A stretch of DNA of 64,000 nt. It comes from Patescibacteria group bacterium (GTDB lineage: Bacteria > Patescibacteriota > UBA1384 > UBA12157 > JAENIV01). Numbering within the stretch: position 1 is the first letter of the stretch; the number at the start of each line of letters is the position of its first letter. A program made the position numbers and the translations under genes. The stretch lies in NCBI GenBank assembly GCA_041666185.1, contig JBAYHL010000004.1, positions 105 through 64,104 of the forward strand, in the 5' to 3' direction. Positions 6,124-59,220 of the stretch are shown here, piece after piece. Under the pieces are notes generated by a model. It worked only from the letters and a program-made list of their open reading frames with translations. It was not told the DNA's origin and searched no databases.

Positions 6124-9100
6124 TTAATTATTTAATATTTCTCTTGTCTTTGGCCCAACTCGTCCAGCCCCACCTTGCGAAGTATCAATATTGTGATAAT
6201 TCTGATACTCAATCACCGCTTTTTGAGTTATGAAACCAAAATATCCTGTAACATAACGAGAGTCAAGAAACCCTTCACTTACTAGTCTTTCCTGAAGTTT
6301 AGTAACATAATAGCCAGAACTTTCAATGTCTAAATCATAAGGAAAATATACTTTATTAGAATCATCACAAGTTCCCTCAATAGCACAATTTGGGATTATT
6401 CCGTTTTCAATATCTTCATTTAAGGCTGCTCTTGTTCTTGGACCAAAGAAACCAGCTCCCCAATCCCACCAACTGGCAACTATTGCTTTTGACTTCTGAT
6501 ATAGGAATACTGCTTGTTTAGTAATACTGCCATAGAAACCAGTAGAATCTACCCAAAATGGAAAATAACCAAGATATCTTAAAACATTTTGCAAAATTCG
6601 AACATTTGCTTGGTTGTCCCCAGAAAAATAAGGCGCTTGATCGTTATTAAAACGAAATGAAGATTGTTGACCACTTTCTTGAGAAGAAGGACTAGTACTA
6701 GGAATTGGGGTAGGCGTAGGTTTTGAAGACTTACTACCATGACCTTGAGACAATGTTGTTTCTGAGCTAGATGGAGAAACTGCTGTTTCAATATTGTTGC
6801 CATTCCTAGCTTTAACTCTGTAAGCATAAGTTGTTGAGTGGACTAACCCAGTATTAGTTATACCAGTTGCTTCACCCCAAGTAGCGTAATCTTGCCAAAC
6901 GGCGGTATCACCATTACTACCATCAGCTTGGACATATTTACCTAAAGCTTCATTGGAAATAGCAAATTGAGTTGCTGCTGAATTGCCATTAACATTAATA
7001 ATTACCTTAAGCGAAGTGCTTGAAGATCGATTTACTGTTGACGCTAAAGGCACGTTAGCCAAAGTATAAGTTGAAGCGGCTGTACCAGAATGAGGAGATT
7101 GACCGGAATCATTATAAGAAACAACATAACGACCAGAATACTCCGTATTAACCGAAAGTCCAACCTCGTCACAAGAAGTTAAATCAACTCCTACACAAGT
7201 TGCCTTTAAAGTGTCTGTCGCATCATATACTTTAAAACCTACTTCATTTGGATTTACGTCAGTAAATTTCCAACGAATAGCAGCTACTGAAATTGCTTCT
7301 GGTGTGCCAATCGTTGGTGCATCTGGTGGGAAAAAATTCCAACCAGGATTATTGTTACCCGAATCAGTAACGTTATCTCCCGGGGTAATTCTAAAAGCAT
7401 TGTTTATATTTTGACTATCGGAAACATCAATATAATCGCCAGAAATCATATCGCCAGAAATAACAAAATACCAAGCCGTATCTGGCACTGAGCTACGAAG
7501 AGCCAAAACATTCCCAACAGAACCGTCTAAAGTCCATGTATCATTTATGGTCTGAGTTGCCCCCGCGGCAAAAGTAATAGTTTTAGCCCCATCAACTGAA
7601 GTATCCATAATTAAATTGTTGAAAGTCGTTGAGCCAGAAATTGCCGCAGCGTTGGTCGAATCAAAAGTAATAGTTTGTGTTCCAGGAGTTGTTCCAGCAG
7701 TAAATGAACCACCAGAAATATTCCAATTTTTAGCCATATTTATATTCAACCCATCAGCATTAAATACGCCATCTGAATTAGTAAAATTACCATCGATATT
7801 CAAAGCATTGGTAGAAAGTTGTAATGTGCCAGCGCCAGAGTGAGTTAAATTGTTGAATAACTTACCAATGCCTGTGCCACCCGAATCAAGAGTTTGAGTA
7901 CCAGAGGATTTAGTAAAATCCACTATGCCACTACCCGGAGTAAAAGTACCAGAATTTATCCAATTACCACCAACATTTATCGTACCGGAAGTAGCAAAGA
8001 GTATAGTATTTAAATTAATTGTTATATCACCATTTACTGTTAAAATATTTGAAGAAATATCTAGAGTATTAGGACCAATCGACAAAACATAAAGCGAAAG
8101 ATTGCCTTCCGCTACTGTTGTACCGGATAGACTATAAGTTACGCTCTGTTCTTCTGCTAGAGCAGCGGAGTTGTATAAATTTATATTATGATAAATATCA
8201 TTGGGTAAAATATTTGAACCGTAGGCATAATAAGCAAATGTTGCATTATTAGTCGTCCAGTCAACTGTACCACCATTATGAGTATAACTACCAAAAACTG
8301 AAAAACTTCCTACATTAACCTGACCACTGCCAGCTGTAAAAGTTCCATTTGTTACATTAAAAATTTTTCCAACGATCGAACCACTCCCACCAATCAAAAC
8401 TCCACCATTTATAGTAATAGTAGTCGCTGAAGATAGTATGGAAGCGCTGCCAAGACTAACTGTTCCTGTATTTAATGTGCCAGCGGTAACATTTAAATTC
8501 CTAATAGTAGTTAAATTACTAGTATTTAGAGTCCAACCACCACCAGCACCATTAACAGTTAAAGTATAGAAACCAGAAGCACCGCCATTGATTGTTTTCC
8601 CTGTTGCGCCGCCATCTAAAGTAACAGTTCTTGTTTCTTTATCAAAAGTCGCCGTGTTGCTCCATGACCCCGCAACGGTCATATCGCGACTATTAACATC
8701 AAAAGTACCAGCAGAGTTAGTGAAGTCACCATCAATGTTTATGTTATTAGTCAAAAGCTGCAAAATTCCAGCACCAGAGTGAGTAATGTTATTAAAAATT
8801 TTCCCTACGCCCGTACCACCAGAATCAAGAGTTTGAGTACCAGAGGATTTGGTAAAATTAACAGTAGAAGAACCAGAAACAAAAACACCACCAGCAGCAT
8901 TTGACCAATTACCACCGACTGCAATAGTAGACAATGAATCGCTTGCATCAAGAGTTCCATTAATGGTTACATTTACTGCTGTTAGATTATAATCAATTGT
9001 TGAAGGTCGTAGATCTAAAGTTGCATTAGCATTAACAGTCAAGTTGCCAGACATGGCTTTAGTGCCTGTAAGATTTCCTGTTAATGAGTAAGTTGTTGGA

Positions 9101-11621: not shown

Positions 11622-11743
11622 AGTGCTGGCGTCGATCTACTTTCCCGGGACCTTGCGGTCCGAGTATCATCGACGCTATGGTGCTTAACTTCTCTGTTCG
11701 GAATGGAAAGAGGTGTACCCACCACGCTAAAACACCAGCACTT
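11622..11743 (-). rRNA. rrf: 5S ribosomal RNA
   Basis: The reverse complement reads AGUGCUGGUG...CCGAACAGAGAAGUUAAGC...CGCCAGCACU, with helix I ends pairing and the conserved CCGAAC...GAAGUUAAGC loop. Confidence 0.85.
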
Positions 11744-11865
11744 AAATTGCGAAGGATTATATTAACTTACAACTTACAATCACCAACTACAACAAGTTGT
11801 AGATTGTTTGTTGTGAATTATTAGTTATTTTTCATCAGTACCTTAGTAGTTGTTTCGTCAAAAAA

Positions 11866-14780
<2,915 letters not shown>

Positions 14781-14893
14781 CAACTACCAAGGCACTGATG
14801 ATTCTGTTGTTAAAGTAGCCAGATTACTGGATAATCGGATGAATAGAGCAATCTCTAATCCTCTGATTATCTAACAACCTTTATTTATGATGT

Positions 14894-14918
14894 TAAAAAA
14901 ACCGCCTTGACGGCGGAC
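14894..14918 (-). terminator. Rho-independent terminator downstream of the pilin-LTD gene
   Basis: The minus strand reads CCGCCGUCAAGGCGG followed by UUUUUUU. Confidence 0.6.
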
Positions 14919-15052
14919 AAAACACAAAGTTAGCTTAAAAAAGCTTACGTTGTTAGCCGCGCGCCCCCTCTCCTAGATTGTCTTTTCCATACATCAGTTT
15001 TAACTCCTTTTTGATTTTAACAAGACCTTTGATTATTGTCAATAGTTTTCTA

Positions 15053-16213
15053 TTAAAAAGAACCTGGATTTGGACTTGCGTCATCGACAAAGCCACTGGT
15101 TGCACTAGTTCTAGCCAATGAATGGCCTTCAGCAACATCGGCTAAATGAGGAAGGGGTGTTGCAGTTGTTCCCCAGCTTAATTGATCAACTACCTGATCA
15201 TATGGATTCTTCAATTCAAGAGAGTCGCCATTGTTGTTTAAAAAAAAAGCGCTTGCTACGAAAATTTTTGCGTCAGGATATCCTGGCCATTTAGCAATAA
15301 ACCCCACTCCTGTAGTAGGTATTATCATAGCGAACTCATGAGACCCAATAGTAGTTGTGCGACCAGCAGCTTTTTCGAGTCCGGCTATATTGCCTACAGA
15401 TCCATAGAGGGAAGAAATTTTCCATCCATCCATATCAACAGATCCAGACGTTGGGTTGTAAAGTTCAATCCATTCAAAACTTTGTTCCATACCATCATTC
15501 CCCCCTGGTCCATAACTTCCTGACGGACCTTTGTCTGGGGCAACATCGTAATAAACCTCAGAAATTATCACATTCCCACCATTACTAATTGCTGGGGGAG
15601 GAGGATCTGACGGCTTCCATGTAGAGGCATCTAAACTATAAACTTCATACATTTTTGACGAAACACCAGTAGACGGCATTACTCCGCCATCATTAATCAT
15701 TAGTTCGTTTCCTTCTTCCAACCGTGCCATCAATTTGTAACCTGAACCATTAGAACCGTAATAATAGGCATAGGTTTCTGTTGTGCCCGCTTCATCACTA
15801 TAAGCTTTACCTTGAAGAGGATCTTGTGGTAAAGGTGATAAATAAACTTTTAAAATATTATGAAGCGAATTAGCGTTGTCAGTAAACCAAGAACGCACAG
15901 TCGCTGACGAATCACAACTTGCCTCGCATGTATTACTACTTAAAACCCAACTTGAACCAGTGCTTGGATAAGTACCTTTTTCATTTTTATATGTCTCTAG
16001 CGCTCCACGAATTGCATCCAAATTAGTAACTCTTTTACTGTCACGACTTTTTCTTCTGGCAGGAGCAAGACTAGTAATTACAAGACCAGCAACAACCACA
16101 ACAATCATTACCACTACTAAGAGTTCTATTAAGGTAAACCCCGACACCAATCGATGATTGGTTGTGGGGGTAAAACTACGTTTTTTTTGCTTAAGATATT
16201 TTTCTTGTCGCAT
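15053..16213 (-). CDS. Type IV pilin / pseudopilin with a C-terminal lamin-tail domain (LTD)
   Basis: Class III (prepilin) signal: basic leader then G|FTLIELLVVV. The C-terminus has LTD motifs VIISEVYYD, EWIELYNPT..VDMDGWKI and NNGDSLELKNPYDQVVDQLSWG. Confidence 0.85.
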   Translation of the reverse strand: MRQEKYLKQKKRSFTPTTNHRLVSGFTLIELLVVVMIVVVVAGLVITSLAPARRKSRDSKRVTNLDAIRGALETYKNEKGTYPSTGSSWVLSSNTCEASCDSSATVRSWFTDNANSLHNILKVYLSPLPQDPLQGKAYSDEAGTTETYAYYYGSNGSGYKLMARLEEGNELMINDGGVMPSTGVSSKMYEVYSLDASTWKPSDPPPPAISNGGNVIISEVYYDVAPDKGPSGSYGPGGNDGMEQSFEWIELYNPTSGSVDMDGWKISSLYGSVGNIAGLEKAAGRTTTIGSHEFAMIIPTTGVGFIAKWPGYPDAKIFVASAFFLNNNGDSLELKNPYDQVVDQLSWGTTATPLPHLADVAEGHSLARTSATSGFVDDASPNPGSF

Positions 16214-16327
16214 TTTTCCCCATTTATATTTATATCTTAAACTTTTTATTTTTTTTAATCAATAAAAAAATGGAGAAAAATTACTTTTAGCAAAAATTTC
16301 TCCATTTTTTCTCTGTTACTTAACAGA

Positions 16328-17020
16328 CTATTTTAATTCTTTACGAATTTTTTCCAAAATGTCTTGGGCCACGTCTTTACCGCCCAAACCAAAAGCAAGT
16401 CCACCAGCAATTGCCAAGAAAGCTACCAAACCAATAAACATGGTTCTAATAAGCGCTTCGGCAATACCTAGTTGGACCAAAACAGCCAAGAATGTGAAAA
16501 CAATAATTGCATAACGGACAATTGCTGCAATTGCGTCTGACATGGCAAAATCAGCTGCCGCCATGGCACCTTTAATCACATTTGACAAGAAATGAGCTAA
16601 AACTAACCCAATAAGCAAAATGGCACCAGCAGCAACAGCTGTTGGGACATAAGCAAGAATCTTGTCTAAGAATAATGCGACATCAGGCAATTTTAAGGTA
16701 TTAGCAGCCGCAATAAAGACAACTAGATAAATTATCCATTTAGCTACTGACGACAATAAAGCTGTTGTGTCTTTATCAATATTGCCTTTTTTCAAAACAT
16801 CTTCGACTTTAGCTTTTTCAAACAAGGTTTGTAAACCAATAATTCGAAAAAGTCGGTCGATAACAATCGCAACAATTATACCAATAAGCCAACCAATAAC
16901 TAAAATGATAATTGCGCCAATAAGATTAGGCAAGAAATTTACAAAACGATCCCAAATTGCTGTCCAACTGTCGGTTACCGCAGTTGTCCAATCTTGTAAA
17001 ACCATTTTTTCCTCTTTCAA
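16328..17020 (-). CDS. Polytopic membrane protein with MscS-associated 'TM-helix' type repeats (function unknown)
   Basis: 230 aa with repeated hydrophobic segments and short K/E-rich termini. Family assignment is weak. Confidence 0.5.
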   Translation of the reverse strand: MKEEKMVLQDWTTAVTDSWTAIWDRFVNFLPNLIGAIIILVIGWLIGIIVAIVIDRLFRIIGLQTLFEKAKVEDVLKKGNIDKDTTALLSSVAKWIIYLVVFIAAANTLKLPDVALFLDKILAYVPTAVAAGAILLIGLVLAHFLSNVIKGAMAAADFAMSDAIAAIVRYAIIVFTFLAVLVQLGIAEALIRTMFIGLVAFLAIAGGLAFGLGGKDVAQDILEKIRKELK

Positions 17021-17216
17021 AAATTAGAACTAAACTCTCGGATAGCTCGACCTCACTTTCTACCTTAATTAGATATTAAATTAAGGTAGCTCTATCCACA
17101 CTCAAGATATTTCAGATTTGAATATAATTCAAGAAGTTTGTCAAGAGCAAGGAGTATTTTAAAAGGGATGTATTAATACATCCCTTGTTTGTTTGTATAC
17201 CTTATGTTGTAGCAAT

Positions 17217-17795
17217 TTACTTGACAAAAACCCTATTCACCGCATCCCATATTCGGACAATACCAGGATGAGCCTGGACACCTAGTAACTTTTGTCTGTT
17301 AAACAATACTATTCCTTTTTCCGGATAATATTCGCTCGCTCGCAAATGATTTTGAGCGAAAGCCAATTCTTGCGGCGTCATTTCGAAAGCAAAAGTGTCT
17401 GCGAAAACATGCATTGAATATCCACCGACACCATCGGACCAAAGATATTGCTGAATATCACTAGAAGCGAAAAGTCTTCTTAGCCTTTCGACACCAATCA
17501 AAAGGCCCGTGTCATCTTCAAAGTGACGACGAGCGGTTTCCAGCAAAGACTCTCCAGGATTCATACTGCCACCATAAACCCACCATTCATTTTTAGCGGG
17601 CTTTATGCATCTTTTGGCTAAGCAGAGATTGATCTGACGCGTTGGCCGATCATACATCCAAGGCACAACATCACAGCAATGGTAAACAAGTCTCGATACT
17701 GCTCGAGGATATTCTTCGTCAGTTAGTCTAACTTTTGACGGTTGATAACCGTTTTCTACAAAAACACTGCCACCAATAGCTCTGTATTTTTCCAC
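17217..17795 (-). CDS. NUDIX-family hydrolase
   Basis: It has a Nudix-box-like GGSMNPGESLLETARRHFEDDTGL. GC is visibly higher (~45%) than the flanking DNA. Confidence 0.7.
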   Translation of the reverse strand: MEKYRAIGGSVFVENGYQPSKVRLTDEEYPRAVSRLVYHCCDVVPWMYDRPTRQINLCLAKRCIKPAKNEWWVYGGSMNPGESLLETARRHFEDDTGLLIGVERLRRLFASSDIQQYLWSDGVGGYSMHVFADTFAFEMTPQELAFAQNHLRASEYYPEKGIVLFNRQKLLGVQAHPGIVRIWDAVNRVFVK

Positions 17796-17884
17796 AACAA
17801 GGTAACCTCCTCTTTTAACTATTAGAACATGTTACTATACCATAAAAACCCCTTTTCGTCAAGGATTTTAGAGAAGTTGCAACC

Positions 17885-17912
17885 TTGACATTTTGGCAAT
17901 AACAAGTATATT
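17885..17912 (+). promoter_or_regulatory. Sigma70-like promoter for the C-type lectin gene
   Basis: TTGACA (17885-17890), a 16-nt spacer, then TATATT (17907-17912). An AGGAG RBS lies 8 nt before the ATG at 17945. Confidence 0.45.
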
Positions 17913-17944
17913 AGAATAAGTTCTTTAACAGATAGGAGACGAAC

Positions 17945-18694
17945 ATGAAAAAAGTTTTGTTTACCGCTCTTGCTTGCACAGTGTTTTCTCTGCCAAGCAA
18001 TATTTATGCTAGTAGTCATTCTTGGGTATTGTGCCCTCTTAATGGTCACTACTATTCCAAAACAGTTTCACCAGTAATGACATGGAATGAAGCAGAAACT
18101 GAAGCAATAAGTGTTGGTGGTCATTTAGCTACTATTCGCAATACAGCAGAAGAAGAATGGATACTCAAAACTTTTCCGCCAGAAAGACTCTGGATAGGGT
18201 TGACAGATTCAGTCTCGGAAGGTAATTGGTTATGGACTAGTGGTGAACCGGTTACTTACACCAATTGGTCAGCTGGCCATCCTAATAATTCTTCCGAAAA
18301 CCAAGATTTTGCTACAATTTGGGGATCACCACCAACATATCCCGCATACTGGGAATCGCGTTCTGGATACGAAAGAACATCTGGAATAATAGAGATAACA
18401 TCTCTACCGCTGCAAATTGTAAATCTTTTTGGTACAATTTATCAAAAAGATTTACAAGAGCAAGTCATTACAGCACCAGATGTCTTTATAGACATCCTGG
18501 ATGTGAATAGAGAACATTTTGTAGTGTCTGGCAAAACTGATGGTAACGGCAAATTCACTATTCTTGCTGATAACTGGCAAGATAGTACATATATCATTCG
18601 GATAAGAAAAACTGGTTACAAAACAAAAGAAGTAGGGGCTACTCTAAAGAATAGTTCCTCAACACCCTTTTCGACAACATTGGAAACAGAATAA
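17945..18694 (+). CDS. Secreted C-type lectin domain (CTLD) protein with a C-terminal carboxypeptidase-regulatory-like beta-sandwich
   Basis: Signal peptide. CTLD hallmarks are WNEAE..A...GGHLATI, WIGLTD, EGNWLWTSGEPVTYTNW, GHPNN and QDFATI. One of very few plus-strand genes here, and GC is slightly elevated. Confidence 0.85.
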   Translation: MKKVLFTALACTVFSLPSNIYASSHSWVLCPLNGHYYSKTVSPVMTWNEAETEAISVGGHLATIRNTAEEEWILKTFPPERLWIGLTDSVSEGNWLWTSGEPVTYTNWSAGHPNNSSENQDFATIWGSPPTYPAYWESRSGYERTSGIIEITSLPLQIVNLFGTIYQKDLQEQVITAPDVFIDILDVNREHFVVSGKTDGNGKFTILADNWQDSTYIIRIRKTGYKTKEVGATLKNSSSTPFSTTLETE

Positions 18695-18713
18695 ATAGAC
18701 AGATCCTTACTTT

Positions 18714-18751
18714 GGTCAATCAGAGATAACTTCAAGATTGACCTTTTTTAT
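18714..18751 (+). terminator. Bidirectional rho-independent terminator between the lectin gene (+) and the receiver gene (-)
   Basis: GGTCAATC...GATTGACC hairpin followed by TTTTTTA. Confidence 0.6.
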
Positions 18752-18766
18752 TCTTAAAATATTTTT

Positions 18767-19186
18767 TTACTCTAAATACTGTCTAATTTTGTCTACCACT
18801 TGATTTGGCGTAAGATTTGCTTTCACTAAATAGTCGTCGGCACCAAGTTTTCTTGCCATATTAATATCTGTAGCATCACCAAGATTAGAAAAAACGATAA
18901 CTGGTTTTTTGGAAGCTGGCCATCCAGAAGAACGAAGCTGTTTTAAAACATCAAGGCCATTAATTTTCGGAAGTATCAGATCAAGTAAAATCAGATCGTA
19001 ATCAATGGATCCTAATTTTTGAATTGCCTCCAAACCATCGAAAGCACTATCCATTTCAAAACCTTCCATAGCTAGCTTGTCCTGATAGGCTCTGACTAAC
19101 ATTCTATCATCTTCGATGAAAATAATTTTTTTTCTTGTTTGCTGAAATTGACCAGACTGATCTCCATTGTTTTGATTGTTTGTCAT
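18767..19186 (-). CDS. Stand-alone response-regulator receiver (CheY-like) protein
   Basis: 139 aa with the acidic pocket DD and phospho-acceptor D (LILLDLILP), T/S (VIVFSN) and K (LVK) signatures, and no output domain. Confidence 0.9.
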   Translation of the reverse strand: MTNNQNNGDQSGQFQQTRKKIIFIEDDRMLVRAYQDKLAMEGFEMDSAFDGLEAIQKLGSIDYDLILLDLILPKINGLDVLKQLRSSGWPASKKPVIVFSNLGDATDINMARKLGADDYLVKANLTPNQVVDKIRQYLE

Positions 19187-19206
19187 ATTCCCTCCATTTT
19201 TATTTT

Positions 19207-22200
19207 TTACATATCTTTTTCTTTATTAATTTTTAAAATTGGCAATGAAAAGTAAAATGTACTACCTTTACCAAGCTCTGCCTCGACCCAAATTTTACCT
19301 CCACAACCTTCTATAATTTTTCGAGCAATATATAAACCCAAACCAAGTCCCGTTCCTTTACCAAGAGGTATTTTCTTACCATCACTAACCTGGGCATATT
19401 TTTGGAATAGTTCTTTTTGTCGATCTTTAGCTATTCCTATACCCGTGTCCTTTATTGCCACAATAACTGAGTTCTCTTTAGCTAAAACTTCTAAGCTAAT
19501 TGAACCTTTGTCAGTATATTTAATAGCATTATCAAGTAAATTAACAATGGCCTCAGGAATTTTTTCACAATCTGCCATAACTTTAGGTATTTTTGTTGGT
19601 ATTTTATAATTAAATTTTAAACCTTTTTTTTCTATCAATGGTTTTGTTTGCTTAACTATATAACCTAAGATTGGCACTAAATCAATCAATTTAGGAACAA
19701 TAGTAATTTTCCCTTTTTCTATTCGAGACATAGTTAGAAAATCATTAATTATGTTTATTAAATTCGTATTGGCCCTACTAACATCTTCTAAAGGCACTTT
19801 TAACTTAGGAGGAATTTCACCATAGTCACCATCTAGTATCATTTCTGTATTGGCTCTTATAACAGACACGGGAGTTCGTAAATCGTGGGTTGCCATATTT
19901 AAAAAGTCATCTTTAGCCTGTTCCATTCTATTTCGCTCAGTAACGTCACGAAAGCTACCCAGAAGATACATTTTTCTATTAACAATCAACCGCGATATAT
20001 TTATATCAGCATAAAAAATACTACCGTCTTTTCTTAACACCGGAAGGTTTGAAACAAGTTTAAGTTTTCCTTTTACCTGTTCTCTAAATATTTTTTTAAC
20101 AAATGGTGCATCTTTTTTAGGATGAATATCGTCAACCCCTAAATCCAACAATTCTTTTTTTGTATATCTTAGCATATTACATATTGCTGTATTACACGTA
20201 CTAAATTTACTAGTTTCCGGATCAGCAACTAGTAAACCATCTTTAGAATCTTCAAATATAGTTTCGAATTTTATTTCTGATTCTTTTAATTTTTGTTCAA
20301 TTTTTCCATGTTCAACACGAACACGTTGTGAGGTAACACCAAAAGCAAGATCGTCCACTAATTCCTTCAATAGCTTAATTTCATCCAGAGCAAATGTATT
20401 TGATTTAATCGAATAAATACCAATTACACCAAATACTTTATCATCGCCAACAAGTGGTAAAGCAATAATTGACTTATAACCTCGTTTTAAAGCATCTTCC
20501 TTCCATGGGGACATAGTTGGATCTGTAGCAATATCGTGTACAATACTAGGATTGCCTGTACGAATAGCTATCCCTCCTGGCCCGCGACCACGCTCAGTAT
20601 CTGCCCATGTTAACTTGGCTTTTTTAATGTAGCCTGATTCGAGTCCAGCATGAGCTATAGGAAGTATGGTTTTTGCTTCATCATGTTTGACATAACCAAC
20701 CCACGCTAAGCGGTAACCACCAGTTTCAACAATAATACGACACGCCTCACTCAATAAGTCTATTTCGTCTGTAACATGAATTAGCATCTGATTAATTTCA
20801 CCCACCATCCGTAACGCACGGTTTAGTTTTATAAGGTTTACTTCCGCAAGTTTGGCCTCAGTAATATCCCAAGTAAGATCAGCGAAAAAGGAGACTAATT
20901 TAACATCCTGCTCGTCATAATTGCTCGATTTATTTCCAACACCTAGCACAGCCATAATTTTATCACCACGGATCACTGGTACTACTAATTCGCGAACTAC
21001 TTTTGCATGACCTTTTGGCATACCTTTTTTATTCAAAAGAGACTCATAATCATTGTGAATAACCGGCTTGCGCTGATAAACACAATCTACCCAAACACCA
21101 GCTTTTTCTATTGCATAATGTGATCCTTTGCCTTCAGCTTTGCAAAATTCTTTTTTTGTTCTAGTTGACCAATTTTGCAATGTTAGCGTTTTTTGATCGG
21201 AATTTACAAAATGGAAAAAACCAATAAGACTACCTGTGAGTTTTTCTATTTCGTTTAGTGCCTCTTCCAACAGCTCATCCATAGAGTGACTATTGGCAAA
21301 CACTAAAAGACGGGCACGAGCTTTAAGAATATTTTCTGTCTGTTTGCGCTCGGTAATATCTCTAATAATCGCCATGATCGCCGGTTTATCTTTATAAATA
21401 ATCCTGGAAGAATTCACTTCAACCGGTAGCTTATTTCCAGTTTTTGATAAAATTTCTATTTCATATCTATTTGGCGCGTCTTGACCCTTTAATCTTTTTT
21501 CGTACCTTTCCGCGACAATTTTTTTATACTCGGGAGACAAAAAATCTAGAAATGATTTTCCAATACTTTCCTCTTTTGTAAAACCTGTCATTTGGCAAAT
21601 TACTGAGTTTACGTACTCAAGCACACCTGCACCCTGTATAACTAAAATGCCATCGTTTCCTTTTTCTACCAAAGTTGAGTATTTTAGTTCGGAAGCTTTT
21701 AACTCCTCTTCTGTCTGTTTGCGCTTGGTAATATCACGAATATTGCATTGAATTATTAATTCCCCATCTGTCCTATAAGCATTGGCAATAAATTCAACTT
21801 CAATTTTTTTTCCATTTTTAGTTTCTAATAGTAAATTATTGAAATGAACATGTTTTTTGGCTTGCAAGGCAAGAAAATGCTTTTTCGACATAATAATGTC
21901 TTTAAAAACACCAATTTCCCAAAGATGTTTTTTTTGAAAATCAGCTTTAGAGTAGTTAAGTAAATTAATTAAAAACGGATTAACGTCTTTAATTATTCCT
22001 GTCTTAAAATCGACCAAAAGTATACCGTCTTGAGCCGTTTCAAATAACCGACGATAACGCAACTCTGATGTTTCTAGCTTGTCTTGTTCCTTTTTTTTGC
22101 GGTAAGTAATATCTTCAATAGCTAAAAGTATTATTTTCGGCTTTTTTGGCGGTCGAGGTATGCGTCGAGCATTCAATAACATCGCTTTTGGCCCAATGGT

Positions 22201-22542
22201 CTCAAAATTATGATCGACTTCGAAACTGTCAAAGAAATTATTTTTAGGAAGAATATCTTCCAACAATTTTTTTAATTTGGGAATATTCCATTGACCATTG
22301 CCTAAATCGTAAATAAACTGATTCGTGGTTTCCTTAGGGTTAACTTTAAAAGTCTGATAGAAGGCTTTATTAGCTAAGATTACTTTTAAATCAGTATCCA
22401 GTACCACCAAAGGTTCTCGTATCGTTGTAATAATTTCTTCAGCATACTCACGAGCTTCCTTTTCCTCTTTAAACAGTTCGGCAAAACGACGTTTTTCCAA
22501 AAAAACGTCGTTTAATTTTTCATTTAACTTCTTTTTGGACAC
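19207..22542 (-). CDS. Multi-domain PAS/GAF sensor histidine kinase (1111 aa)
   Basis: Several PAS (e.g. ...RDITERK...) and GAF modules. HisKA H-box is ATHDLRTPVSVI. HATPase G-boxes are DTGIGI and GTGLGLGLYIARKIIEGCGGKIWV. Confidence 0.9.
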   Translation of the reverse strand: MSKKKLNEKLNDVFLEKRRFAELFKEEKEAREYAEEIITTIREPLVVLDTDLKVILANKAFYQTFKVNPKETTNQFIYDLGNGQWNIPKLKKLLEDILPKNNFFDSFEVDHNFETIGPKAMLLNARRIPRPPKKPKIILLAIEDITYRKKKEQDKLETSELRYRRLFETAQDGILLVDFKTGIIKDVNPFLINLLNYSKADFQKKHLWEIGVFKDIIMSKKHFLALQAKKHVHFNNLLLETKNGKKIEVEFIANAYRTDGELIIQCNIRDITKRKQTEEELKASELKYSTLVEKGNDGILVIQGAGVLEYVNSVICQMTGFTKEESIGKSFLDFLSPEYKKIVAERYEKRLKGQDAPNRYEIEILSKTGNKLPVEVNSSRIIYKDKPAIMAIIRDITERKQTENILKARARLLVFANSHSMDELLEEALNEIEKLTGSLIGFFHFVNSDQKTLTLQNWSTRTKKEFCKAEGKGSHYAIEKAGVWVDCVYQRKPVIHNDYESLLNKKGMPKGHAKVVRELVVPVIRGDKIMAVLGVGNKSSNYDEQDVKLVSFFADLTWDITEAKLAEVNLIKLNRALRMVGEINQMLIHVTDEIDLLSEACRIIVETGGYRLAWVGYVKHDEAKTILPIAHAGLESGYIKKAKLTWADTERGRGPGGIAIRTGNPSIVHDIATDPTMSPWKEDALKRGYKSIIALPLVGDDKVFGVIGIYSIKSNTFALDEIKLLKELVDDLAFGVTSQRVRVEHGKIEQKLKESEIKFETIFEDSKDGLLVADPETSKFSTCNTAICNMLRYTKKELLDLGVDDIHPKKDAPFVKKIFREQVKGKLKLVSNLPVLRKDGSIFYADINISRLIVNRKMYLLGSFRDVTERNRMEQAKDDFLNMATHDLRTPVSVIRANTEMILDGDYGEIPPKLKVPLEDVSRANTNLINIINDFLTMSRIEKGKITIVPKLIDLVPILGYIVKQTKPLIEKKGLKFNYKIPTKIPKVMADCEKIPEAIVNLLDNAIKYTDKGSISLEVLAKENSVIVAIKDTGIGIAKDRQKELFQKYAQVSDGKKIPLGKGTGLGLGLYIARKIIEGCGGKIWVEAELGKGSTFYFSLPILKINKEKDM

Positions 22543-22639
22543 ATTACCCCCTCACCTATTTTATTAATTTTTAGTTATATTAGCTTAAAAAACTAATGCT
22601 TGTTTGTTTTTGTTTTTTACAAATTACATTTTTATTATA

Positions 22640-22667
22640 TCAAAAAAACTACAATTGTTGTAGTTTC
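22640..22667 (-). terminator. Rho-independent terminator between the tRNA-Ala islet and the sensor-kinase gene
   Basis: A perfect 9-bp stem, aaactacaa / ttgtagttt, followed on the minus strand by UUUUUUU. Confidence 0.5.
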
Positions 22668-22700: not shown

Positions 22701-22886
22701 TGGAACCCCTTCTTCGAGTATATATTCGAATGGTATCCAATACTAAAAGAAATATACGAACCTTAATAAGTTTCCACTAATCAACTCCAAAGAATTAGTA
22801 TCAAAAAAACTGTCACAACACTAGGAAGTGACAGTCAATAGAGATATATCGAATCTCCACCGGTTAAAAGCACTCGATGCTTGAAG

Positions 22887-23213
22887 TTATTGCAACAGCC
22901 CTTCTTTGAGAGTCGTCTCCACAACAACTCTATCAGCCATTGTCTTGACGGGCTGTCGATCTGTGCCCACTTGCCAGTTTAGATGCATTCCTCCCTCTGT
23001 CGCCTGAGTGACAAAACCATCTCCATTGGGGTGAACAACGACATCATTATGCCCCTTCTTCTTGAAAGTTATTCTCAATTTTTGATTCCTATGAAACTGG
23101 TGACATAGACTCAACACTAGATCCTGAGCGGCATGTAACCCTTGGACCTTCGATACCCTTAGCACAAACTTCATTAGCGTCTCACCTCCCTTATCCTGCA
23201 CATTATATAACAA
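22887..23213 (-). CDS. Hypothetical protein (108 aa) inside the tRNA-Ala-associated GC-rich islet
   Basis: Open frame with ~48-50% GC against ~35% background and no recognisable family. The start may be the internal MKFVLRV. Confidence 0.4.
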   Translation of the reverse strand: MLYNVQDKGGETLMKFVLRVSKVQGLHAAQDLVLSLCHQFHRNQKLRITFKKKGHNDVVVHPNGDGFVTQATEGGMHLNWQVGTDRQPVKTMADRVVVETTLKEGLLQ

Positions 23214-23360
23214 AACACTGATATTGTCAATATTTTAGCGCCTAGATTTAACCAGAGTGAATATAAACTAAATTAAGGATATGCAAACATGATCGACATA
23301 AAGGGTTCCAGCTCCTCTCAAGTATATACAAAAAAAGCAGGACTAAACCTGTTAATTTCG

Positions 23361-23435
23361 TGGTGGACCTGAGAGGATTTGAACCTCCGACCTTCTCCTT
23401 GCAAAGGAGTTGCTCTACCACTGAGCTACAGGCCC
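23361..23435 (-). tRNA. tRNA-Ala (anticodon UGC)
   Basis: The reverse complement is GGGCCUGUAGCUCAGUGGUAGAGC...CUCC-UUUGCAA-GGAG...GGUUCAAAUCC...CAGGUCCACCA. It has the G3:U70 identity pair and an encoded CCA. Confidence 0.9.
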
Positions 23436-23469: not shown

Positions 23470-23727
23470 TTACCAAGCAGCTGATGTTAAATAGACCAAA
23501 CTTCCAACTATCAGCAATATGGCTATCAACTTCCAAGCTGTATAAGTACCCCCCATTCCTAAATGTCTTTCTGCCCAATCCATTTTGCCAACTATTCTTA
23601 CAACTCGATCAGTATACTTCAAAATAAGAATCGCTACTGCCGTACATGCCAAAAAAATTAAAATTTTAATAAATACCATACGCTTACTCCTATAACTATT
23701 ATTTGGGTAATTGCCCCCAAAAACCAC
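23470..23727 (-). CDS. Small hypothetical membrane protein (2 TM)
   Basis: 85-aa ORF with two hydrophobic helices. Its 5' end overlaps the upstream ORF, so the true start may be the internal MVFIKIL. Confidence 0.4.
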   Translation of the reverse strand: MVFGGNYPNNSYRSKRMVFIKILIFLACTAVAILILKYTDRVVRIVGKMDWAERHLGMGGTYTAWKLIAILLIVGSLVYLTSAAW

Positions 23728-24128
23728 TTTTCTTTCGGTAGATCAAAATGAAATTTTTTATGAATCGAATGGATTTGTTTAAGCAGCGGTAACTGTCGTA
23801 AAGATCTAAATGGGTTATTGTCTATAATATCAACGGCAATTCCACCCATTCCACCAGCGATAATAACATCGAAATTTGATTTATGTTGAAACAAAATAAT
23901 AATTATTGCCCAAATTATTATAAATTCTGAAAGAGCGTAAATGTATATCCAAGTTGGCCAAGGTTTATTTTCATCTCTTTCTGGGTTAAAAAATGTACCC
24001 GGATCAACGTGAGGAACTGCATCTAAAATAAAGTGCAGAAAAAAGCCAACTAAAAATGCTAACAGCCAGTTATCAGTTACAGCTGCGGCTACCGCCGATC
24101 CTGCTAATAGGTGAGGTGTAATAATCAT
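23658..24128 (-). CDS. Membrane-bound metal-dependent-hydrolase-like protein (YdjM/DUF457-like)
   Basis: 156 aa, mostly TM helices, with H..LD..PH and HxxH-type motifs. Lies between tRNA-Ile and tRNA-Ala. Confidence 0.5.
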   Translation of the reverse strand: MIITPHLLAGSAVAAAVTDNWLLAFLVGFFLHFILDAVPHVDPGTFFNPERDENKPWPTWIYIYALSEFIIIWAIIIILFQHKSNFDVIIAGGMGGIAVDIIDNNPFRSLRQLPLLKQIHSIHKKFHFDLPKEKWFLGAITQIIVIGVSVWYLLKF

Positions 24129-24154: not shown

Positions 24155-24234
24155 TGGTGGGCGCACCTGGACTCGAACCAGGGACCTCGTCATTATCAGT
24201 GACGCGCTCTAACCAGCTGAGCTATGCGCCCACC
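24155..24234 (-). tRNA. tRNA-Ile (anticodon GAU)
   Basis: The reverse complement is GGUGGGCGCAUAGCUCAGCUGGUUAGAGCGCGUCA-CUGAUAA-UGACG...GGUUCGAGUCC...GCGCCCACCA. Confidence 0.9.
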
Positions 24235-24349: not shown

Positions 24350-24982
24350 CTAAGGTAATAATTGAAATGATTTGCTAAGCTCACTTAATAAATCGTTTTT
24401 ACTACTATCTTGATAGTTGGTGCCAAATTCAAAAATATAATTATCTTCAGAAACCGCGTAAGCATAATTATAATTTTCCGGATTAATATTTTGAACTGTA
24501 TAACCTTTTTGACCTGCCATCTCAATTTCTGAACCTAACTTAAAACCATTTGAAGAATTATAACTTTTATTAATCCATTCTAACAAAGTTAATTGTTTTT
24601 TTGGTTCGTAGATTTTAAGGTAAATATTTTTCTTTAAATTAGAGACATCTGTTTTATCTGCTTGACTCGCATCTTGGGCACTGCTCGAATTATTAAAACC
24701 CACTTGAAAAATTAATTCTTTATTAGACGAACCAGCACCGCTCTTTTGCTCTTGCCAAGTTGAAGGGTACTTAAAAGAAAAGCCATAAATTTCATTAGTA
24801 TAAGTTTTATAATTTACTTCTTGCGATTTAGTCACAACAGGTGTTATTGATACAGATGCCGACTTAACTGATTTATTAGTTTTTAAATACTTTGCTAATA
24901 AAAAACTTGAAACTGCTGAAATAATTAAAACTAAAAAGAAAATAAAAACCCAAAATATTTTTTTAGACGCCTGGGATCTCAT
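24350..24982 (-). CDS. Hypothetical membrane-anchored/secreted protein (210 aa) in the 16S to tRNA-Ile spacer
   Basis: N-terminal TM or signal segment, Ser/Asn-rich, no family match. Confidence 0.5.
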   Translation of the reverse strand: MRSQASKKIFWVFIFFLVLIISAVSSFLLAKYLKTNKSVKSASVSITPVVTKSQEVNYKTYTNEIYGFSFKYPSTWQEQKSGAGSSNKELIFQVGFNNSSSAQDASQADKTDVSNLKKNIYLKIYEPKKQLTLLEWINKSYNSSNGFKLGSEIEMAGQKGYTVQNINPENYNYAYAVSEDNYIFEFGTNYQDSSKNDLLSELSKSFQLLP

Positions 24983-25159: not shown

Positions 25160-26622
<1,463 letters not shown>

Positions 26623-26959
26623 AGATATTCAAGCTAGATTACTCTAGATGAACATCTGGGTAAATTTTTATTTAAAGTCTTCTAAAATTTTTTAAAAAGA
26701 AGTTTTCTTGCAACCGTAAAAACCCTGAAATGCCTCCAAAATTCTTACGATCTAGTTGTTAAAGTTCTTTCTCACTTCAATCTGAATGAAGGACAAACAA
26801 AAAAGCTCCGAGACAGTCGGAACCTTTTTGACTATCCTCGATTTAATAAAGCACGATTAATTTTTTAATTTAAGGCAATATAAAATATCATCTCCTTAAA
26901 CTTAACAGACTAAGCCCATTATAACTTGAGTCAAAAACTATGTCAACCCCCACAAGTCC

Positions 26960-59166: not shown

Positions 59167-59220
59167 TGATTTTTGTGGCGCAAACACAAAAACACTCAAT
59201 TCAAGGAGGATAAAGACCGA

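What the first reader, a model, noticed from the sequence alone, without database searches (positions are those of the whole stretch)
15053..22542. Gene block embedded in the rRNA spacer: pilin-LTD fusion, C-type lectin, NUDIX hydrolase, giant PAS/GAF kinase and orphan receiver
The genes inserted between tRNA-Ala and 23S are accessory rather than core. They include a prepilin-type protein fused to a lamin-tail domain and a secreted C-type lectin with its own strong promoter. They also include a NUDIX enzyme with elevated GC and a 1111-aa multi-PAS/GAF histidine kinase with only a stand-alone receiver as partner. For a reduced-genome organism that is probably host- or particle-associated, a pilus with a glycan-binding lectin and an elaborate sensor forms a plausible attachment/sensing module. 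The co-location is seen directly. The functional link is inference.
Basis: inference. Interest (0 to 1): 0.65.

Follow-up and report, generated by a model that had tools for sequence, protein, structure and literature searches.

The report
Accessory genes inside a split rRNA locus
The genes between tRNA-Ala and 23S rRNA are real and correctly named, but they look like a lineage-specific mix of separately transcribed accessory genes sitting in two variable slots of a split rRNA locus shared by Berkelbacteria-like bacteria, not a conserved attachment and sensing module.

Summary
All five domain calls pass curated Pfam thresholds: prepilin motif plus LTD, C-type lectin, NUDIX, PAS/GAF histidine kinase, and a stand-alone receiver. 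The arrangement recurs in three assemblies from different datasets.

None carries the kinase, receiver, lectin, NUDIX or pilin-LTD gene there. Their slots hold unrelated genes such as a GH5-like protein, cmk and envelope enzymes.

Only fragments recur elsewhere: NUDIX→MscTM in one contig, and pilin-LTD next to the 23S leader in two. Promoter- and terminator-like sites suggest each gene or pair is its own transcription unit. The kinase has no membrane segment, the lectin lacks the canonical EPN/WND calcium-sugar motifs, and the 64-kb window holds no pilus machinery.

23S-5S has its own conserved promoter, hairpin and boxA leader, so this is a split ("unlinked") rRNA locus, which is already known in Patescibacteria.

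The most novel by-product is a conserved 12-15-codon micro-ORF inside the 23S leader.

The parts
25165..26619 (-). 16S rRNA. Its leader lies upstream: consensus promoter at 26918-26946, a hairpin plus U-run at 26798-26829, and boxA CTTTAACAAC at 26755-26764.
24350..24982 (-). PsbP-like 210-aa ORF with an N-terminal membrane anchor, between 16S and tRNA-Ile. It is specific to this lineage.
24155..24231 (-). tRNA-Ile (GAT)
23658..24128 (-). TM156: a 156-aa membrane protein between tRNA-Ile and tRNA-Ala, conserved at this position in all nine related genome loci. It gives only weak, sub-threshold YdjM/Zn_dep_PLPC-like matches.
23470..23679 (-). A 69-aa protein with two hydrophobic segments. ORFs of similar size sit at the same position in four relatives (cluster C6), but homology of the window ORF to them was not tested.
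23361..23435 (-). tRNA-Ala (TGC), followed by a weak terminator-like hairpin at 23330-23351.
22803..23230 (-). orf95 unit: a perfect TTGACA-17-TATAAT promoter (23202-23230), SD GGGAGGTGA, a 95-aa ORF (22887-23174), and a terminator (22803-22836). Its GC3 of 0.469 is an outlier (z = 3.6).
19207..22542 (-). Soluble 1111-aa histidine kinase with four PAS-fold stretches, 2 GAF, HisKA and HATPase_c. An extended -10 candidate, TGATATAAT, lies at 22634-22642.
18767..19186 (-). Stand-alone receiver of 139 aa, starting 20 nt after the kinase stop.
17885..18749 (+). Lectin unit on the opposite strand: promoter at 17885-17912, a 249-aa secreted C-type lectin domain protein at 17945-18694, and a terminator-like hairpin at 18714-18749.
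17161..17862 (-). NUDIX unit: promoter at 17834-17862 (divergent from the lectin promoter), a 192-aa ORF at 17217-17795, and a terminator hairpin at 17161-17186.
16264..17144 (-). MscTM unit: promoter region at 17126-17144, a conserved 5'-UTR motif at 17040-17101, a 225-aa ORF at 16328-17005 (the ORF listing version starts at TTG 17020 and is 230 aa), and a terminator at 16264-16310. This is the conserved skeleton gene of the locus.
15053..16213 (-). Modular type IV pilin: class III signal peptide (VSG|FTLIE), a pilin module, a PPPP linker, and a C-terminal lamin-tail domain.
14774..15042 (-). 23S leader. In order: promoter TTGACA-17-TGTTAAAAT (15014-15042), SD, a 13-codon micro-ORF (14953-14994), hairpin H1 (14929-14948), GC hairpin plus U-run H2 (14895-14916), boxA (14806-14815), and the 5' arm of the processing stem (14774-14798).
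11624..14768 (-). 23S rRNA (11863-14768) and 5S rRNA (11624-11739). The 23S processing stem arms are 11832-11872 and 14761-14801.

Best explanation
**What it is.** The interval is the variable part of a split rRNA locus that is ancestral to a Berkelbacteria-like clade of Patescibacteria.

**The clade-wide skeleton.** 16S ... tRNA-Ile, TM156, a small membrane protein (in several genomes), tRNA-Ala | slot 1 | MscS-TM-like protein | slot 2 | promoter-leader-boxA-23S-5S.

**What this lineage added.**
- Slot 1 accumulated orf95, the kinase-receiver pair, the lectin (opposite strand) and NUDIX.
- Slot 2 accumulated the pilin-LTD gene.

**Independent expression (inferred from consensus scans).** Each gene or gene pair has its own promoter-like and terminator-like signals. 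23S-5S is transcribed from its own promoter, not as part of a 16S-23S precursor. The genes are therefore neighbours by insertion history, not an operon or a conserved module.

**Likely individual functions (inferred from domains).**
- The pilin-LTD is a modular minor pilin that would display an Ig-like LTD module on a type IV pilus assembled by genes elsewhere in the genome.
- The lectin-like protein is secreted but lacks the canonical Ca2+-sugar site.
- The soluble PAS/GAF kinase senses an intracellular cue and phosphorylates a CheY-like receiver, which acts through protein contacts.
- The NUDIX-like protein has a non-canonical catalytic box.
For: **Skeleton.**
- MscTM homologues (64-86% identical) were found in nine related genome contigs, among them the complete Berkelbacteria GW2011_GWE1_39_12 genome.
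- In the seven contigs that reach 23S, MscTM lies 0.3-4.3 kb upstream of it. The other two contigs end first.
- TM156 sits by the tRNA-Ile/tRNA-Ala pair in all nine. It lies between the two tRNAs wherever both are on the contig.

**Variable slots.**
- tblastn at E<1e-5 finds no homologue of the kinase, receiver, lectin, NUDIX, pilin-LTD, orf95 or PsbP-like protein in any of the nine loci.
- Their slots instead hold a GH5-like protein, a TSP3-repeat protein, a DUF11 protein, cmk, an LPG_synthase/GT4/PIG-L set, and unknowns. A ClpB-like ATPase and LAGLIDADG endonuclease ORFs occupy other parts of these loci.
- The tRNA-Ala-to-23S distance ranges from 1.7 to 9.0 kb in relatives and is 8.6 kb here.

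**Backbone synteny.** ClpP, GMD and an epimerase lie upstream of 16S, and M15 peptidase, CofD and GlmS lie downstream of 5S. These flanks are conserved with L006 and L007.

**Partial recurrences only.** NUDIX (69% identical) precedes MscTM (81%) in L023. MscTM, a 99-aa ORF and pilin-LTD appear in that order in L004. In L005, pilin-LTD and a second pilin precede the 23S leader promoter.

**Separate transcription units.** Promoter- and terminator-like sites flank each unit.

**Independent 23S-5S unit.**
- The promoter-hairpin-boxA leader is conserved in every relative that reaches this position, including L008, which was not used to build the profile (nhmmer E = 1e-10).
- In L006, L007, L008, L010 and L012, a terminator after MscTM precedes that promoter.
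- In L012 and L006 there is no room for another promoter between the hairpin and boxA.

**Composition.** It is typical for all genes except NUDIX (z = 2.2) and orf95 (z = 3.0; GC3 z = 3.6).

**Known background.** Unlinked rRNA genes are documented as common in Patescibacteria (bioRxiv 10.1101/705046) and in symbionts (PMC7761764).
Against: - Only nine related genomes and a few short contigs could be examined. None is closer than about 86% MscTM identity or 92% 16S identity. A sister species carrying the same block cannot be excluded.
- Promoters and terminators are consensus matches, not mapped transcript ends. The overall counts of such sites in the region are close to shuffle expectation (46 vs 40.1 promoter-like; 17 vs 14.0 terminator-like).
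- RNA polymerase modified at the 16S boxA could read through the internal terminators. That would couple the same-strand genes to rRNA transcription.
- Six of the ten proteins between 16S and 23S are membrane or secreted proteins. This is a thematic bias that pure chance insertion does not explain.
Confidence: 0.75

Rival explanations
1. The pilin-LTD, lectin, kinase and receiver form one attachment and sensing module. In it, a glycan-binding lectin and a pilus mediate contact, and the kinase-receiver pair regulates them.
For: - The genes are co-located within 7.5 kb.
- The pilin-LTD and lectin are predicted surface or secreted proteins.
- CheY-like single-domain receivers regulate type IV pili in other bacteria (own knowledge of PilG/PilH).
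- Modular pilins are known adhesins (PMC8179133).
Against: - The block is absent from nine related loci, and the homologues examined (lectin, kinase-like) sit in contexts lacking the other block genes.
- The units appear separately transcribed, and the lectin is on the opposite strand.
- The kinase has no membrane or extracytoplasmic segment.
- The lectin lacks EPN/QPD and WND, which its own homologues keep.
- The window holds no pilus machinery.
Confidence: 0.1
2. The genes are deliberately placed downstream of the strong 16S promoter and boxA. Antitermination-modified RNA polymerase would then read through them, coupling their expression to growth rate. On this view the block is part of one long rRNA-driven transcript.
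For: - Nine of the ten protein genes between 16S and 23S are co-oriented with the rRNA genes.
- A perfect consensus promoter and boxA lie upstream of 16S.
- The boxA-nucleated complex makes polymerase termination-resistant (PMC10250234 and PMC4807359, listed; own knowledge).
Against: - Terminator-like hairpins with U-runs follow tRNA-Ala, orf95, NUDIX and MscTM.
- Strong independent promoters precede orf95, NUDIX and 23S.
- In relatives a strong terminator separates MscTM from the 23S promoter.
- In L013 the tRNA-Ile is inverted and no 16S lies within 10 kb. In L008 the tRNA unit is inverted relative to MscTM.
Confidence: 0.1
3. The block is a mobile genomic island that integrated at tRNA-Ala.
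For: - It starts immediately 3' of tRNA-Ala.
- NUDIX and orf95 have elevated GC.
- The contents differ between relatives.
Against: - No integrase, transposase or recombinase domain appears in any ORF.
- The tRNA-Ala 3' end is not duplicated anywhere in the window.
- Direct repeats do not flank the block.
- The kinase, receiver, lectin and pilin have host-typical GC and GC3.
- The conserved MscTM gene lies in the middle of the interval, splitting it into two slots.
Confidence: 0.04
4. The arrangement is a chimeric assembly across rRNA repeats.
For: rRNA genes are frequent sites of metagenome misassembly (own knowledge). The ENA contig differs from the window mainly inside 23S.
Against: Three contigs from different datasets give identical junctions. 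Nine related genomes, including a complete one, have the same skeleton.
Confidence: 0.01

Closest known systems
Unlinked (split) rRNA genes of reduced-genome bacteria. Examples: Patescibacteria in Brewer et al. (bioRxiv 10.1101/705046), and Buchnera and Wolbachia as cited in PMC7761764.
   Same: - 16S and 23S are more than 1500 bp apart (10,396 bp here).
- 23S-5S appears to form its own transcription unit.
- Protein genes lie between the rRNA genes.
- The organism has a small genome and is probably symbiotic.
   Different: - The two halves stay co-oriented and only about 10 kb apart.
- tRNA-Ile and tRNA-Ala stay with the 16S half.
- Two to three membrane-protein genes are fixed inside the locus across the clade, with two variable slots around one of them.
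- I found no description of this skeleton in the papers searched.
Modular type IV pilins, such as Streptococcus sanguinis PilB (vWA module) and PilC (lectin module) (PMC8179133, PMC9934059).
   Same: [quoted passage not shown]
- Such pilins are reported as widespread, with 264 architectures, several of the examples from candidate-phyla bacteria.
   Different: - The grafted module here is a lamin-tail (LTD) Ig-like domain.
- The leader is 24 residues long.
- No assembly genes are nearby.
- Binding specificity is unknown.
- The paper's text does not mention an LTD architecture ('LTD' has no occurrence, and the 'lamin' matches shown are 'laminin'). Its datasets were not read.
Animal C-type lectin carbohydrate-recognition domains (mincle, mannose receptor, langerin).
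   Same: The sequence matches the Lectin_C profile and many solved CTLDs (E down to 1e-31 for multi-CTLD receptors and about 1e-15 for single domains). The WIGL core motif is present.
   Different: - HPN replaces EPN/QPD and WES replaces WND.
- The mature protein has only one cysteine, so the canonical disulfides are absent (and sequence).
- A C-terminal beta-sandwich-like tail follows the domain.
rrn leader antitermination elements boxB-boxA-boxC of E. coli (PMC10250234, abstract listed).
   Same: A promoter is followed by a hairpin and then CTTTAACAA (boxA core), upstream of both 16S and 23S.
   Different: - A complete leader with its own promoter precedes 23S.
- The hairpin is followed by a U-run like an intrinsic terminator.
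- The 23S leader contains an SD plus a 12-15-codon ORF.

Membership tests
Type IV pilin (class III signal peptide proteins) | An N-terminal leader ending in Gly, followed by a hydrophobic segment with Glu at +5. | tested here: met
   The sequence reads ...HRLVSG|FTLIELLVV. PF07963 scores 22.5 against a cut-off of 21.2. TIGR02532 scores 20.3 against 16.3.
Type IV pilin (class III signal peptide proteins) | A long N-terminal alpha-helix packed on a beta-sheet head. | tested here: met
   The AlphaFold model has helices at 25-61 and 63-79, then beta strands (mean pLDDT 67). phmmer matches GspG 5wda and PilA chains over residues 26-87.
Type IV pilin (class III signal peptide proteins) | A prepilin peptidase and assembly ATPase/platform encoded in the genome. 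| not testable with these tools
   None is found in the 64-kb window. The rest of the genome is not available.
Lamin tail domain (PF00932) | A profile match above the curated cut-off and an Ig-like beta-sandwich fold. | tested here: met
   Pfam scores 50.3 bits against 34.3. The top Foldseek PDB hits are lamin tail domains 3jt0, 3gef and 1ifr (probability 1.0, TM-target 0.55-0.64).
C-type lectin domain | A profile match to Lectin_C or to solved CTLDs. | tested here: met
   Pfam scores 54.8 bits against 22.6. 137 PDB sequences match at E <= 0.001. The model core (residues 30-85) has pLDDT of about 80, but the whole model is poor (55.3).
C-type lectin domain | The Ca2+-dependent sugar site: EPN or QPD plus WND. 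| tested here: not met
   The window protein has HPN and WES. Its homologues P0064-P0067 keep QPD (NPN in P0067) and WND.
C-type lectin domain | Two conserved disulfides. | tested here: not met
   Only one Cys (C30) follows the signal peptide (sequence).
NUDIX hydrolase | A profile match above the cut-off. | tested here: met
   PF00293 scores 30.1 bits against 21.1. There are weak PDB matches to MutT proteins.
NUDIX hydrolase | The Nudix box GX5EX7REUXEEXGU with its catalytic glutamates. | tested here: not met
   The box reads GSMNPGESLLETARRHFEDDTGL. G-x5-E-x7-R is kept, but REUXEE is RHFEDD (sequence; consensus from own knowledge).
Two-component system (HisKA kinase plus receiver) | In the kinase: an H-box His and N/G1/G2 boxes. 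In the receiver: an acidic pocket, a phospho-Asp, a Ser/Thr and a Lys. | tested here: met
   HisKA scores 49.6 bits and HATPase_c 83.6 bits. The kinase has ATHDLRTP, NLLDNAIKYT, DTGIGI and GTGLGLGL. The receiver has IEDD, LLDLILP, VFSN and LVKA.
Linked rRNA operon (16S-ITS-23S) | A spacer of <= 1500 bp (criterion of bioRxiv 10.1101/705046) and co-transcription from the 16S promoter. | tested here: not met
   The spacer is 10,396 bp. A separate conserved promoter and leader precede 23S. Transcription itself was not measured.
tRNA-targeted genomic island | An integrase/recombinase gene and a duplicated tRNA 3' end (att). | tested here: not met
   No such domain is present. The tRNA-Ala 3' 25-mer occurs once with up to 3 mismatches allowed.

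The most novel reading that the evidence does not exclude
The conserved element between the block and 23S may be a translation-sensing attenuator of 23S-5S rRNA synthesis.

**Anatomy.** A consensus promoter is followed by a Shine-Dalgarno sequence and a 12-15-codon ORF (consensus MY..(D/N)NL.(E/K)G(V/A).G). Next come a stem that in several relatives includes the stop codon, an internal hairpin, and a GC hairpin plus U-run. boxA and 23S follow directly.

**Proposed mechanism.** Ribosomes translating or terminating on the micro-ORF remodel the downstream structure. This would set how many polymerases pass the hairpin into 23S-5S. In a lineage where 16S and 23S are no longer co-transcribed, that would link large-subunit rRNA output to translational capacity.

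**A second candidate.** The conserved 5'-UTR motif of the MscS-TM-like gene (GGATAG...GGUCGA.CUAUCC) would be another undescribed cis-regulatory RNA in the same locus.
Probability: 0.2. Interest if true: 0.75.

Novelty: new member of a known kind. Interest (0 to 1): 0.38.

Why it matters
**For the finding as given.** It matters little. It is another example of an unlinked rRNA locus in a reduced-genome bacterium, filled with lineage-specific accessory genes, and it includes one more architecture of modular pilin.

**Practical consequences.**
- 16S-ITS-23S amplicon methods will miss this clade.
- Annotating these genes as a functional module would be unsafe.

**The wider pattern is more useful.**
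- The split rRNA locus has a protein-coding skeleton conserved across rRNA divergence of 8-20%, with two slots where gene content turns over. This gives a defined place to study gene gain and loss in Patescibacteria.
- The conserved promoter, micro-ORF, hairpin and boxA leader in front of 23S offers a testable handle on how such bacteria balance 16S and 23S synthesis once the operon is broken.

Tried and rejected
1. **Synteny through the block genes themselves.**
   - The pilin-LTD search gave only two relatives at 32-34% identity, on contigs of 2.5 kb or less.
   - The lectin search gave ten hits, all CTLD-only and in unrelated contexts.
   - The NUDIX search gave one relative.
   - The kinase metagenome scan gave only domain-level matches.
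2. **dN/dS between the window and the 98.7%-identical ENA contig.** All ten genes are identical, and the differences lie in 23S. No information was gained.
3. **Lectin structure prediction.** Mean pLDDT was 55.3, too poor for a fold search. I relied on sequence matches to solved CTLDs instead.
4. **RNAalifold.**
   - On the 23S leader it recovered only the terminal hairpin, because the internal hairpin is not alignable by MAFFT. Single-sequence folds were used for the rest.
   - On the MscTM 5' UTR it predicted nothing.
   - The hand-specified helix there is 95.6% paired but has no double compensatory change, so it remains unproven.
5. **Rfam.** Searches at gathering and at E <= 5 found no family for either element.
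6. **Genomic-island idea.** Rejected: no integrase and no att repeat.
7. **Possible paralogy between the two GC3 outliers.** orf95 and the STAS gene at 59173-59586 show no similarity.
8. **orf95 homologues.** An exhaustive HMMER search found only single WD40-like blades in large TIR-WD40 and FG-GAP proteins. This is no functional lead.

Full report
**1. The observation**

Rfam and ARAGORN place all rRNA and tRNA genes on the minus strand. The order is 16S (26619..25165), tRNA-Ile (24231..24155), tRNA-Ala (23435..23361), 23S (14768..11863) and 5S (11739..11624).

Every domain call passes Pfam's curated cut-off:
- N_methyl plus LTD in the 386-aa protein.
- Lectin_C in the 249-aa protein, which lies on the plus strand.
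- NUDIX in the 192-aa protein.
- Four PAS-fold stretches, 2 GAF, HisKA and HATPase_c in the 1111-aa protein.
- Response_reg alone in the 139-aa protein.

NCBIfam agrees. The lectin's strong promoter is real (11 of 12). The NUDIX GC elevation is real but modest (0.430, z = 2.2).

- An MscS-TM-helix-like membrane protein inside the interval (16328-17020; PF05552).
- A 95-aa ORF with a perfect consensus promoter, just after tRNA-Ala.
- Three ORFs between 16S and tRNA-Ala.

The arrangement is not an assembly artefact. Looking up the pilin-LTD protein returned three contigs from different datasets. They are 98.7-100% identical to the window across the junctions into 23S.

**2. What the locus is**

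NCBI names the source a Patescibacteria group MAG. Searches with the block's own proteins gave almost no relatives. The overlooked MscTM protein did. It retrieved nine related genome contigs at 64-86% identity, labelled Patescibacteria group, Berkelbacteria or Saccharibacteria. One is the complete Berkelbacteria GW2011_GWE1_39_12 genome. The window's 16S is 90-92% identical to the three 16S genes held, and its 23S is 80-88% identical to the seven 23S genes held.

Annotating these loci shows one skeleton:
- tRNA-Ile, then TM156. A ~67-aa ORF follows in four relatives, and a 69-aa ORF of untested homology occupies that position in the window. Then tRNA-Ala.
- A variable stretch (slot 1).
- MscTM.
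- A second variable stretch (slot 2).
- 23S, then 5S.

In the seven contigs that reach 23S, MscTM lies 0.3-4.3 kb upstream of it. The other two end first.

None of the nine loci contains a homologue of the kinase, receiver, lectin, NUDIX, pilin-LTD, orf95 or PsbP-like protein (tblastn). Their slots hold a GH5-like protein, a TSP3-repeat protein, a DUF11 protein, cytidylate kinase, an LPG-synthase/GT4/PIG-L set, and unknowns. A ClpB-like ATPase and LAGLIDADG endonuclease ORFs sit elsewhere in these loci.

The tRNA-Ala-to-23S distance varies from 1.7 to 9.0 kb in relatives and is 8.6 kb here. Genes flanking the whole rRNA region are syntenic with L006 and L007. The simplest history is lineage-specific insertion into two slots of a conserved backbone.

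**3. Partial recurrences**
- A short Logan contig (L023) has NUDIX (69% identical) directly upstream of MscTM (81%).
- Contig L004 has MscTM, a 99-aa ORF, then a pilin-LTD (34% identical).
- Contig L005 has a pilin-LTD (32%), then a second pilin. Both L004 and L005 end in the conserved 23S leader promoter.
- MscTM identity does not predict NUDIX presence. L006 (86%) and L007 (83%) lack it, so these are patchy gains or losses.
- The lectin's nearest homologues (36-48% identical, CTLD only) lie among unrelated genes. Two of those contigs have about 58% GC and two have 39-44%.
- The kinase has only domain-level matches in the metagenome scan.

**4. Transcription architecture (consensus scans and reading of the sequence; inferred, not measured)**

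| Unit | Signals |
|---|---|
| 16S | Perfect TTGACA-17-TATAAT promoter, a hairpin plus U-run, and boxA CTTTAACAAC |
| tRNA-Ala | Weak terminator-like hairpin follows it |
| orf95 | Second perfect promoter (23230..23202), SD GGGAGGTGA, and a terminator (22836..22803) |
| Kinase and receiver | TGATATAAT extended -10 candidate; the two genes are 20 nt apart |
| Lectin and NUDIX | Diverge from a 150-bp region with a promoter on each strand; each ends in a hairpin |
| MscTM | Own promoter region, conserved 5' UTR, and a strong terminator |
| Pilin-LTD | Its stop codon is 10 nt from the -35 of the next promoter |

These site calls are individually plausible. However, the regional counts of promoter-like and terminator-like sites are close to shuffle expectation. 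The unit boundaries therefore need RNA data.

**5. 23S-5S is its own unit**

Upstream of 23S, every relative that reaches this position has the same leader. The order is:
- TTGACA-17-TGTTAAAAT.
- AAGGAG.
- A short ORF.
- A hairpin.
- A GC hairpin plus U-run.
- boxA.
- The 5' arm of the 23S processing stem. In the window this arm pairs with 11832-11872.

A profile built from eight leaders finds exactly one copy per locus and one in the 64-kb window. It also detects the leader in L008, which was not used to build it (E = 1e-10).

In L006, L007, L008, L010 and L012 a strong terminator after MscTM precedes this promoter. In L012 and L006 only 5-25 nt separate the hairpin's U-run from boxA, so no other promoter can serve 23S.

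The block therefore lies between two rRNA transcription units, not inside a transcribed spacer. By the 1500-bp criterion the rRNA genes are unlinked. That state is already reported as common in Patescibacteria (bioRxiv 10.1101/705046) and in symbionts with separate 23S-5S units (PMC7761764).

**6. The individual genes**

*Pilin-LTD.*
- It has a canonical class III signal peptide (G|FTLIE).
- The AlphaFold model shows a long N-terminal helix, a beta head, a PPPP linker and a C-terminal beta-sandwich (mean pLDDT 67).
- phmmer matches GspG and PilA chains. Foldseek's top hits are lamin tail domains.
- It fits the class of modular pilins, described as widespread with 264 architectures (PMC8179133).
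- No pilus assembly gene is in the window.

*Lectin.*
- It matches many solved CTLDs.
- Aligned with its homologues, it has HPN where they have QPD, EPD or NPN. It has WES where several have WND.
- Only one cysteine follows the signal peptide.
- Ca2+-dependent sugar binding is therefore doubtful.

*Kinase and receiver.*
- The kinase has all catalytic boxes but no hydrophobic segment, so it senses a cytoplasmic signal.
- The receiver has all conserved phospho-acceptor residues.

*NUDIX-like protein.* It keeps G-x5-E-x7-R but reads RHFEDD where the box requires REUXEE.

*orf95.* Its only remote similarity is to single WD40-like blades.

*TM156.* It gives recurrent sub-threshold matches to YdjM and Zn_dep_PLPC in five of eight family members. 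This is a lead only.

**7. Verdict on the interpretation**

The domain calls and the accessory character are right. The claim of one attachment and sensing module is not supported, for these reasons:
- Absence from relatives.
- Scattered homologues.
- Apparently separate transcription units.
- A cytoplasmic sensor.
- A degenerate lectin site.
- No pilus machinery nearby.

One residual point favours some theme: six of the ten proteins between 16S and 23S are membrane or secreted proteins. I put the module reading at about 0.1 and the 'cargo in a split rRNA locus' reading at about 0.75.

**8. By-products**

*Micro-ORF in the 23S leader.*
- It is intact, with ATG and an upstream SD, in nine of ten lineages. 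L013 has no canonical start.
- The peptides are MYGKDNLGEGARG, MYGNYNLGEGACG, MYRIDNLKGVCG, MYISNKLFEGVDG, MYQADNLSKGVSG, MYETNNEKGVDG, MGTNLNLEGVDD, MDITYKLVEGVDG and MYSNNNLTIGGGGNS.
- Among the eight ORFs aligned, length differences are 0 or 3 nt. The L008 ORF, found later, is 15 codons. All three stop codons occur at the equivalent position. Leu, Val, Gly, Tyr and Asn codons vary synonymously.
- Pairwise pN/pS is 0.52 in frame against 1.0-1.2 out of frame. This is a small, non-independent sample.
- Downstream, single-sequence folds give a stem that in several relatives includes the stop codon, plus an internal hairpin whose sequence differs between lineages (AAGCU..., CUCAAAA..., AGCUA..., CUAUUUU...).
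- They also give the GC hairpin, for which three of five pairs show compensatory changes.

The layout resembles a leader-peptide attenuator. The 16S leader has the same hairpin-then-boxA layout without a conserved ORF. The hairpin may therefore be a boxB-like or pause element common to both leaders.

*MscTM 5' UTR motif.* It reads GUGGAUAG, then a variable insert, then GGUCGA.CUAUCC, in all twelve loci. It occurs once per locus. The putative helix is 95.6% paired, against 28-46% when slid, but has no double compensatory change.

Neither element matches Rfam.

**9. Novelty and score**

The finding as given is a new member of known kinds: an unlinked rRNA locus, a modular pilin, a bacterial CTLD protein, and a PAS/GAF kinase with a CheY-like partner.

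The clade-wide protein-coding skeleton of the split locus and the 23S leader micro-ORF were not described in the papers I could search. That is absence of evidence from a limited library.

Overall interest is 0.38. The most novel reading not excluded, a translation-sensing attenuator of 23S-5S synthesis, gets probability about 0.2 and interest 0.75 if true.

Noticed in passing
window 14894-15042 (-); also L004, L005, L006-L010, L012-L014: The conserved 23S leader contains an SD plus a 12-15-codon micro-ORF (MY..(D/N)NL.(E/K)G(V/A).G). A structured region and a GC hairpin plus U-run follow it, directly before boxA and 23S. In-frame pN/pS is 0.52 against about 1.1 out of frame. There is no Rfam match. 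It may be a leader-peptide attenuator of rRNA transcription.
   Followed up: partly
window 17023-17144 (-); one copy in each of L004, L006-L014, L023: A conserved promoter region and 5'-UTR motif (GTGGATAG, a variable insert, then GGTCGA.CTATCC) lie upstream of the MscS-TM-like gene. It is a candidate cis-regulatory RNA or protein-binding hairpin. The helix is 95.6% paired but has no compensatory double changes, and there is no Rfam match.
   Followed up: partly
window 23470-24128 (-); L006-L014: A 156-aa membrane protein sits by tRNA-Ile and tRNA-Ala in every relative (between them where both are held). Four relatives also have a ~67-aa ORF there, and the window has a 69-aa ORF of untested homology at that position. 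The 156-aa family gives recurrent sub-threshold YdjM/Zn_dep_PLPC matches (metal-dependent membrane hydrolase-like). In L008 the tRNA-Ile/TM156/tRNA-Ala unit is inverted relative to MscTM. In L013 only tRNA-Ile is inverted.
   Followed up: partly
window 22803-23230 (-): orf95 has a perfect consensus promoter, a strong SD, its own terminator, and the highest GC3 in the block (0.469, z = 3.6). Its only remote similarity is to single WD40-like blades of large TIR-WD40 proteins. It may be a gene fragment or a novel small protein.
   Followed up: partly
window 26755-26946 (-); L007 3480-3846; L009 1290-1634: The 16S leader has the same promoter, hairpin plus U-run, and boxA layout. It also has an SD-like AAGGAG followed by very short ORFs (MIFYIALN, MEDMF, MEKSF) that are not conserved as peptides.
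   Followed up: partly
window 6124-11529 (-): An 1801-aa protein with C-terminal peptidoglycan-binding repeats lies directly after 5S. It is absent from the otherwise syntenic L006, L007 and L012, so it is another lineage-specific insertion next to the rRNA genes.
   Followed up: no
window 24350-24982 (-): A PsbP-like 210-aa anchored protein lies between 16S and tRNA-Ile. It has the lowest GC in the region (0.288) and is absent from relatives, which carry LAGLIDADG endonuclease ORFs or other genes there.
   Followed up: no
L009 14690-15004 and 3248-3330; L014 14936-19395; L006, L007, L009, L012 between 23S and 5S: Relatives carry a group I intron in 23S, a group II intron fragment after 16S, a 4.4-kb 23S gene (insertions), and ORFs of the LAGLIDADG cluster between 23S and 5S. 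The window's 23S (2906 nt) has none of these.
   Followed up: no
window 59173-59586 (+): A STAS-domain 137-aa gene on the opposite strand has the highest GC3 in the window (0.486, z = 3.9). It has no similarity to orf95.
   Followed up: partly
window 34171-35583 (-): An [FeFe]-hydrogenase large-subunit-like gene sits among the glycolysis genes (PGK, GAPDH, aldolase, TIM) of this small-genome bacterium.
   Followed up: no
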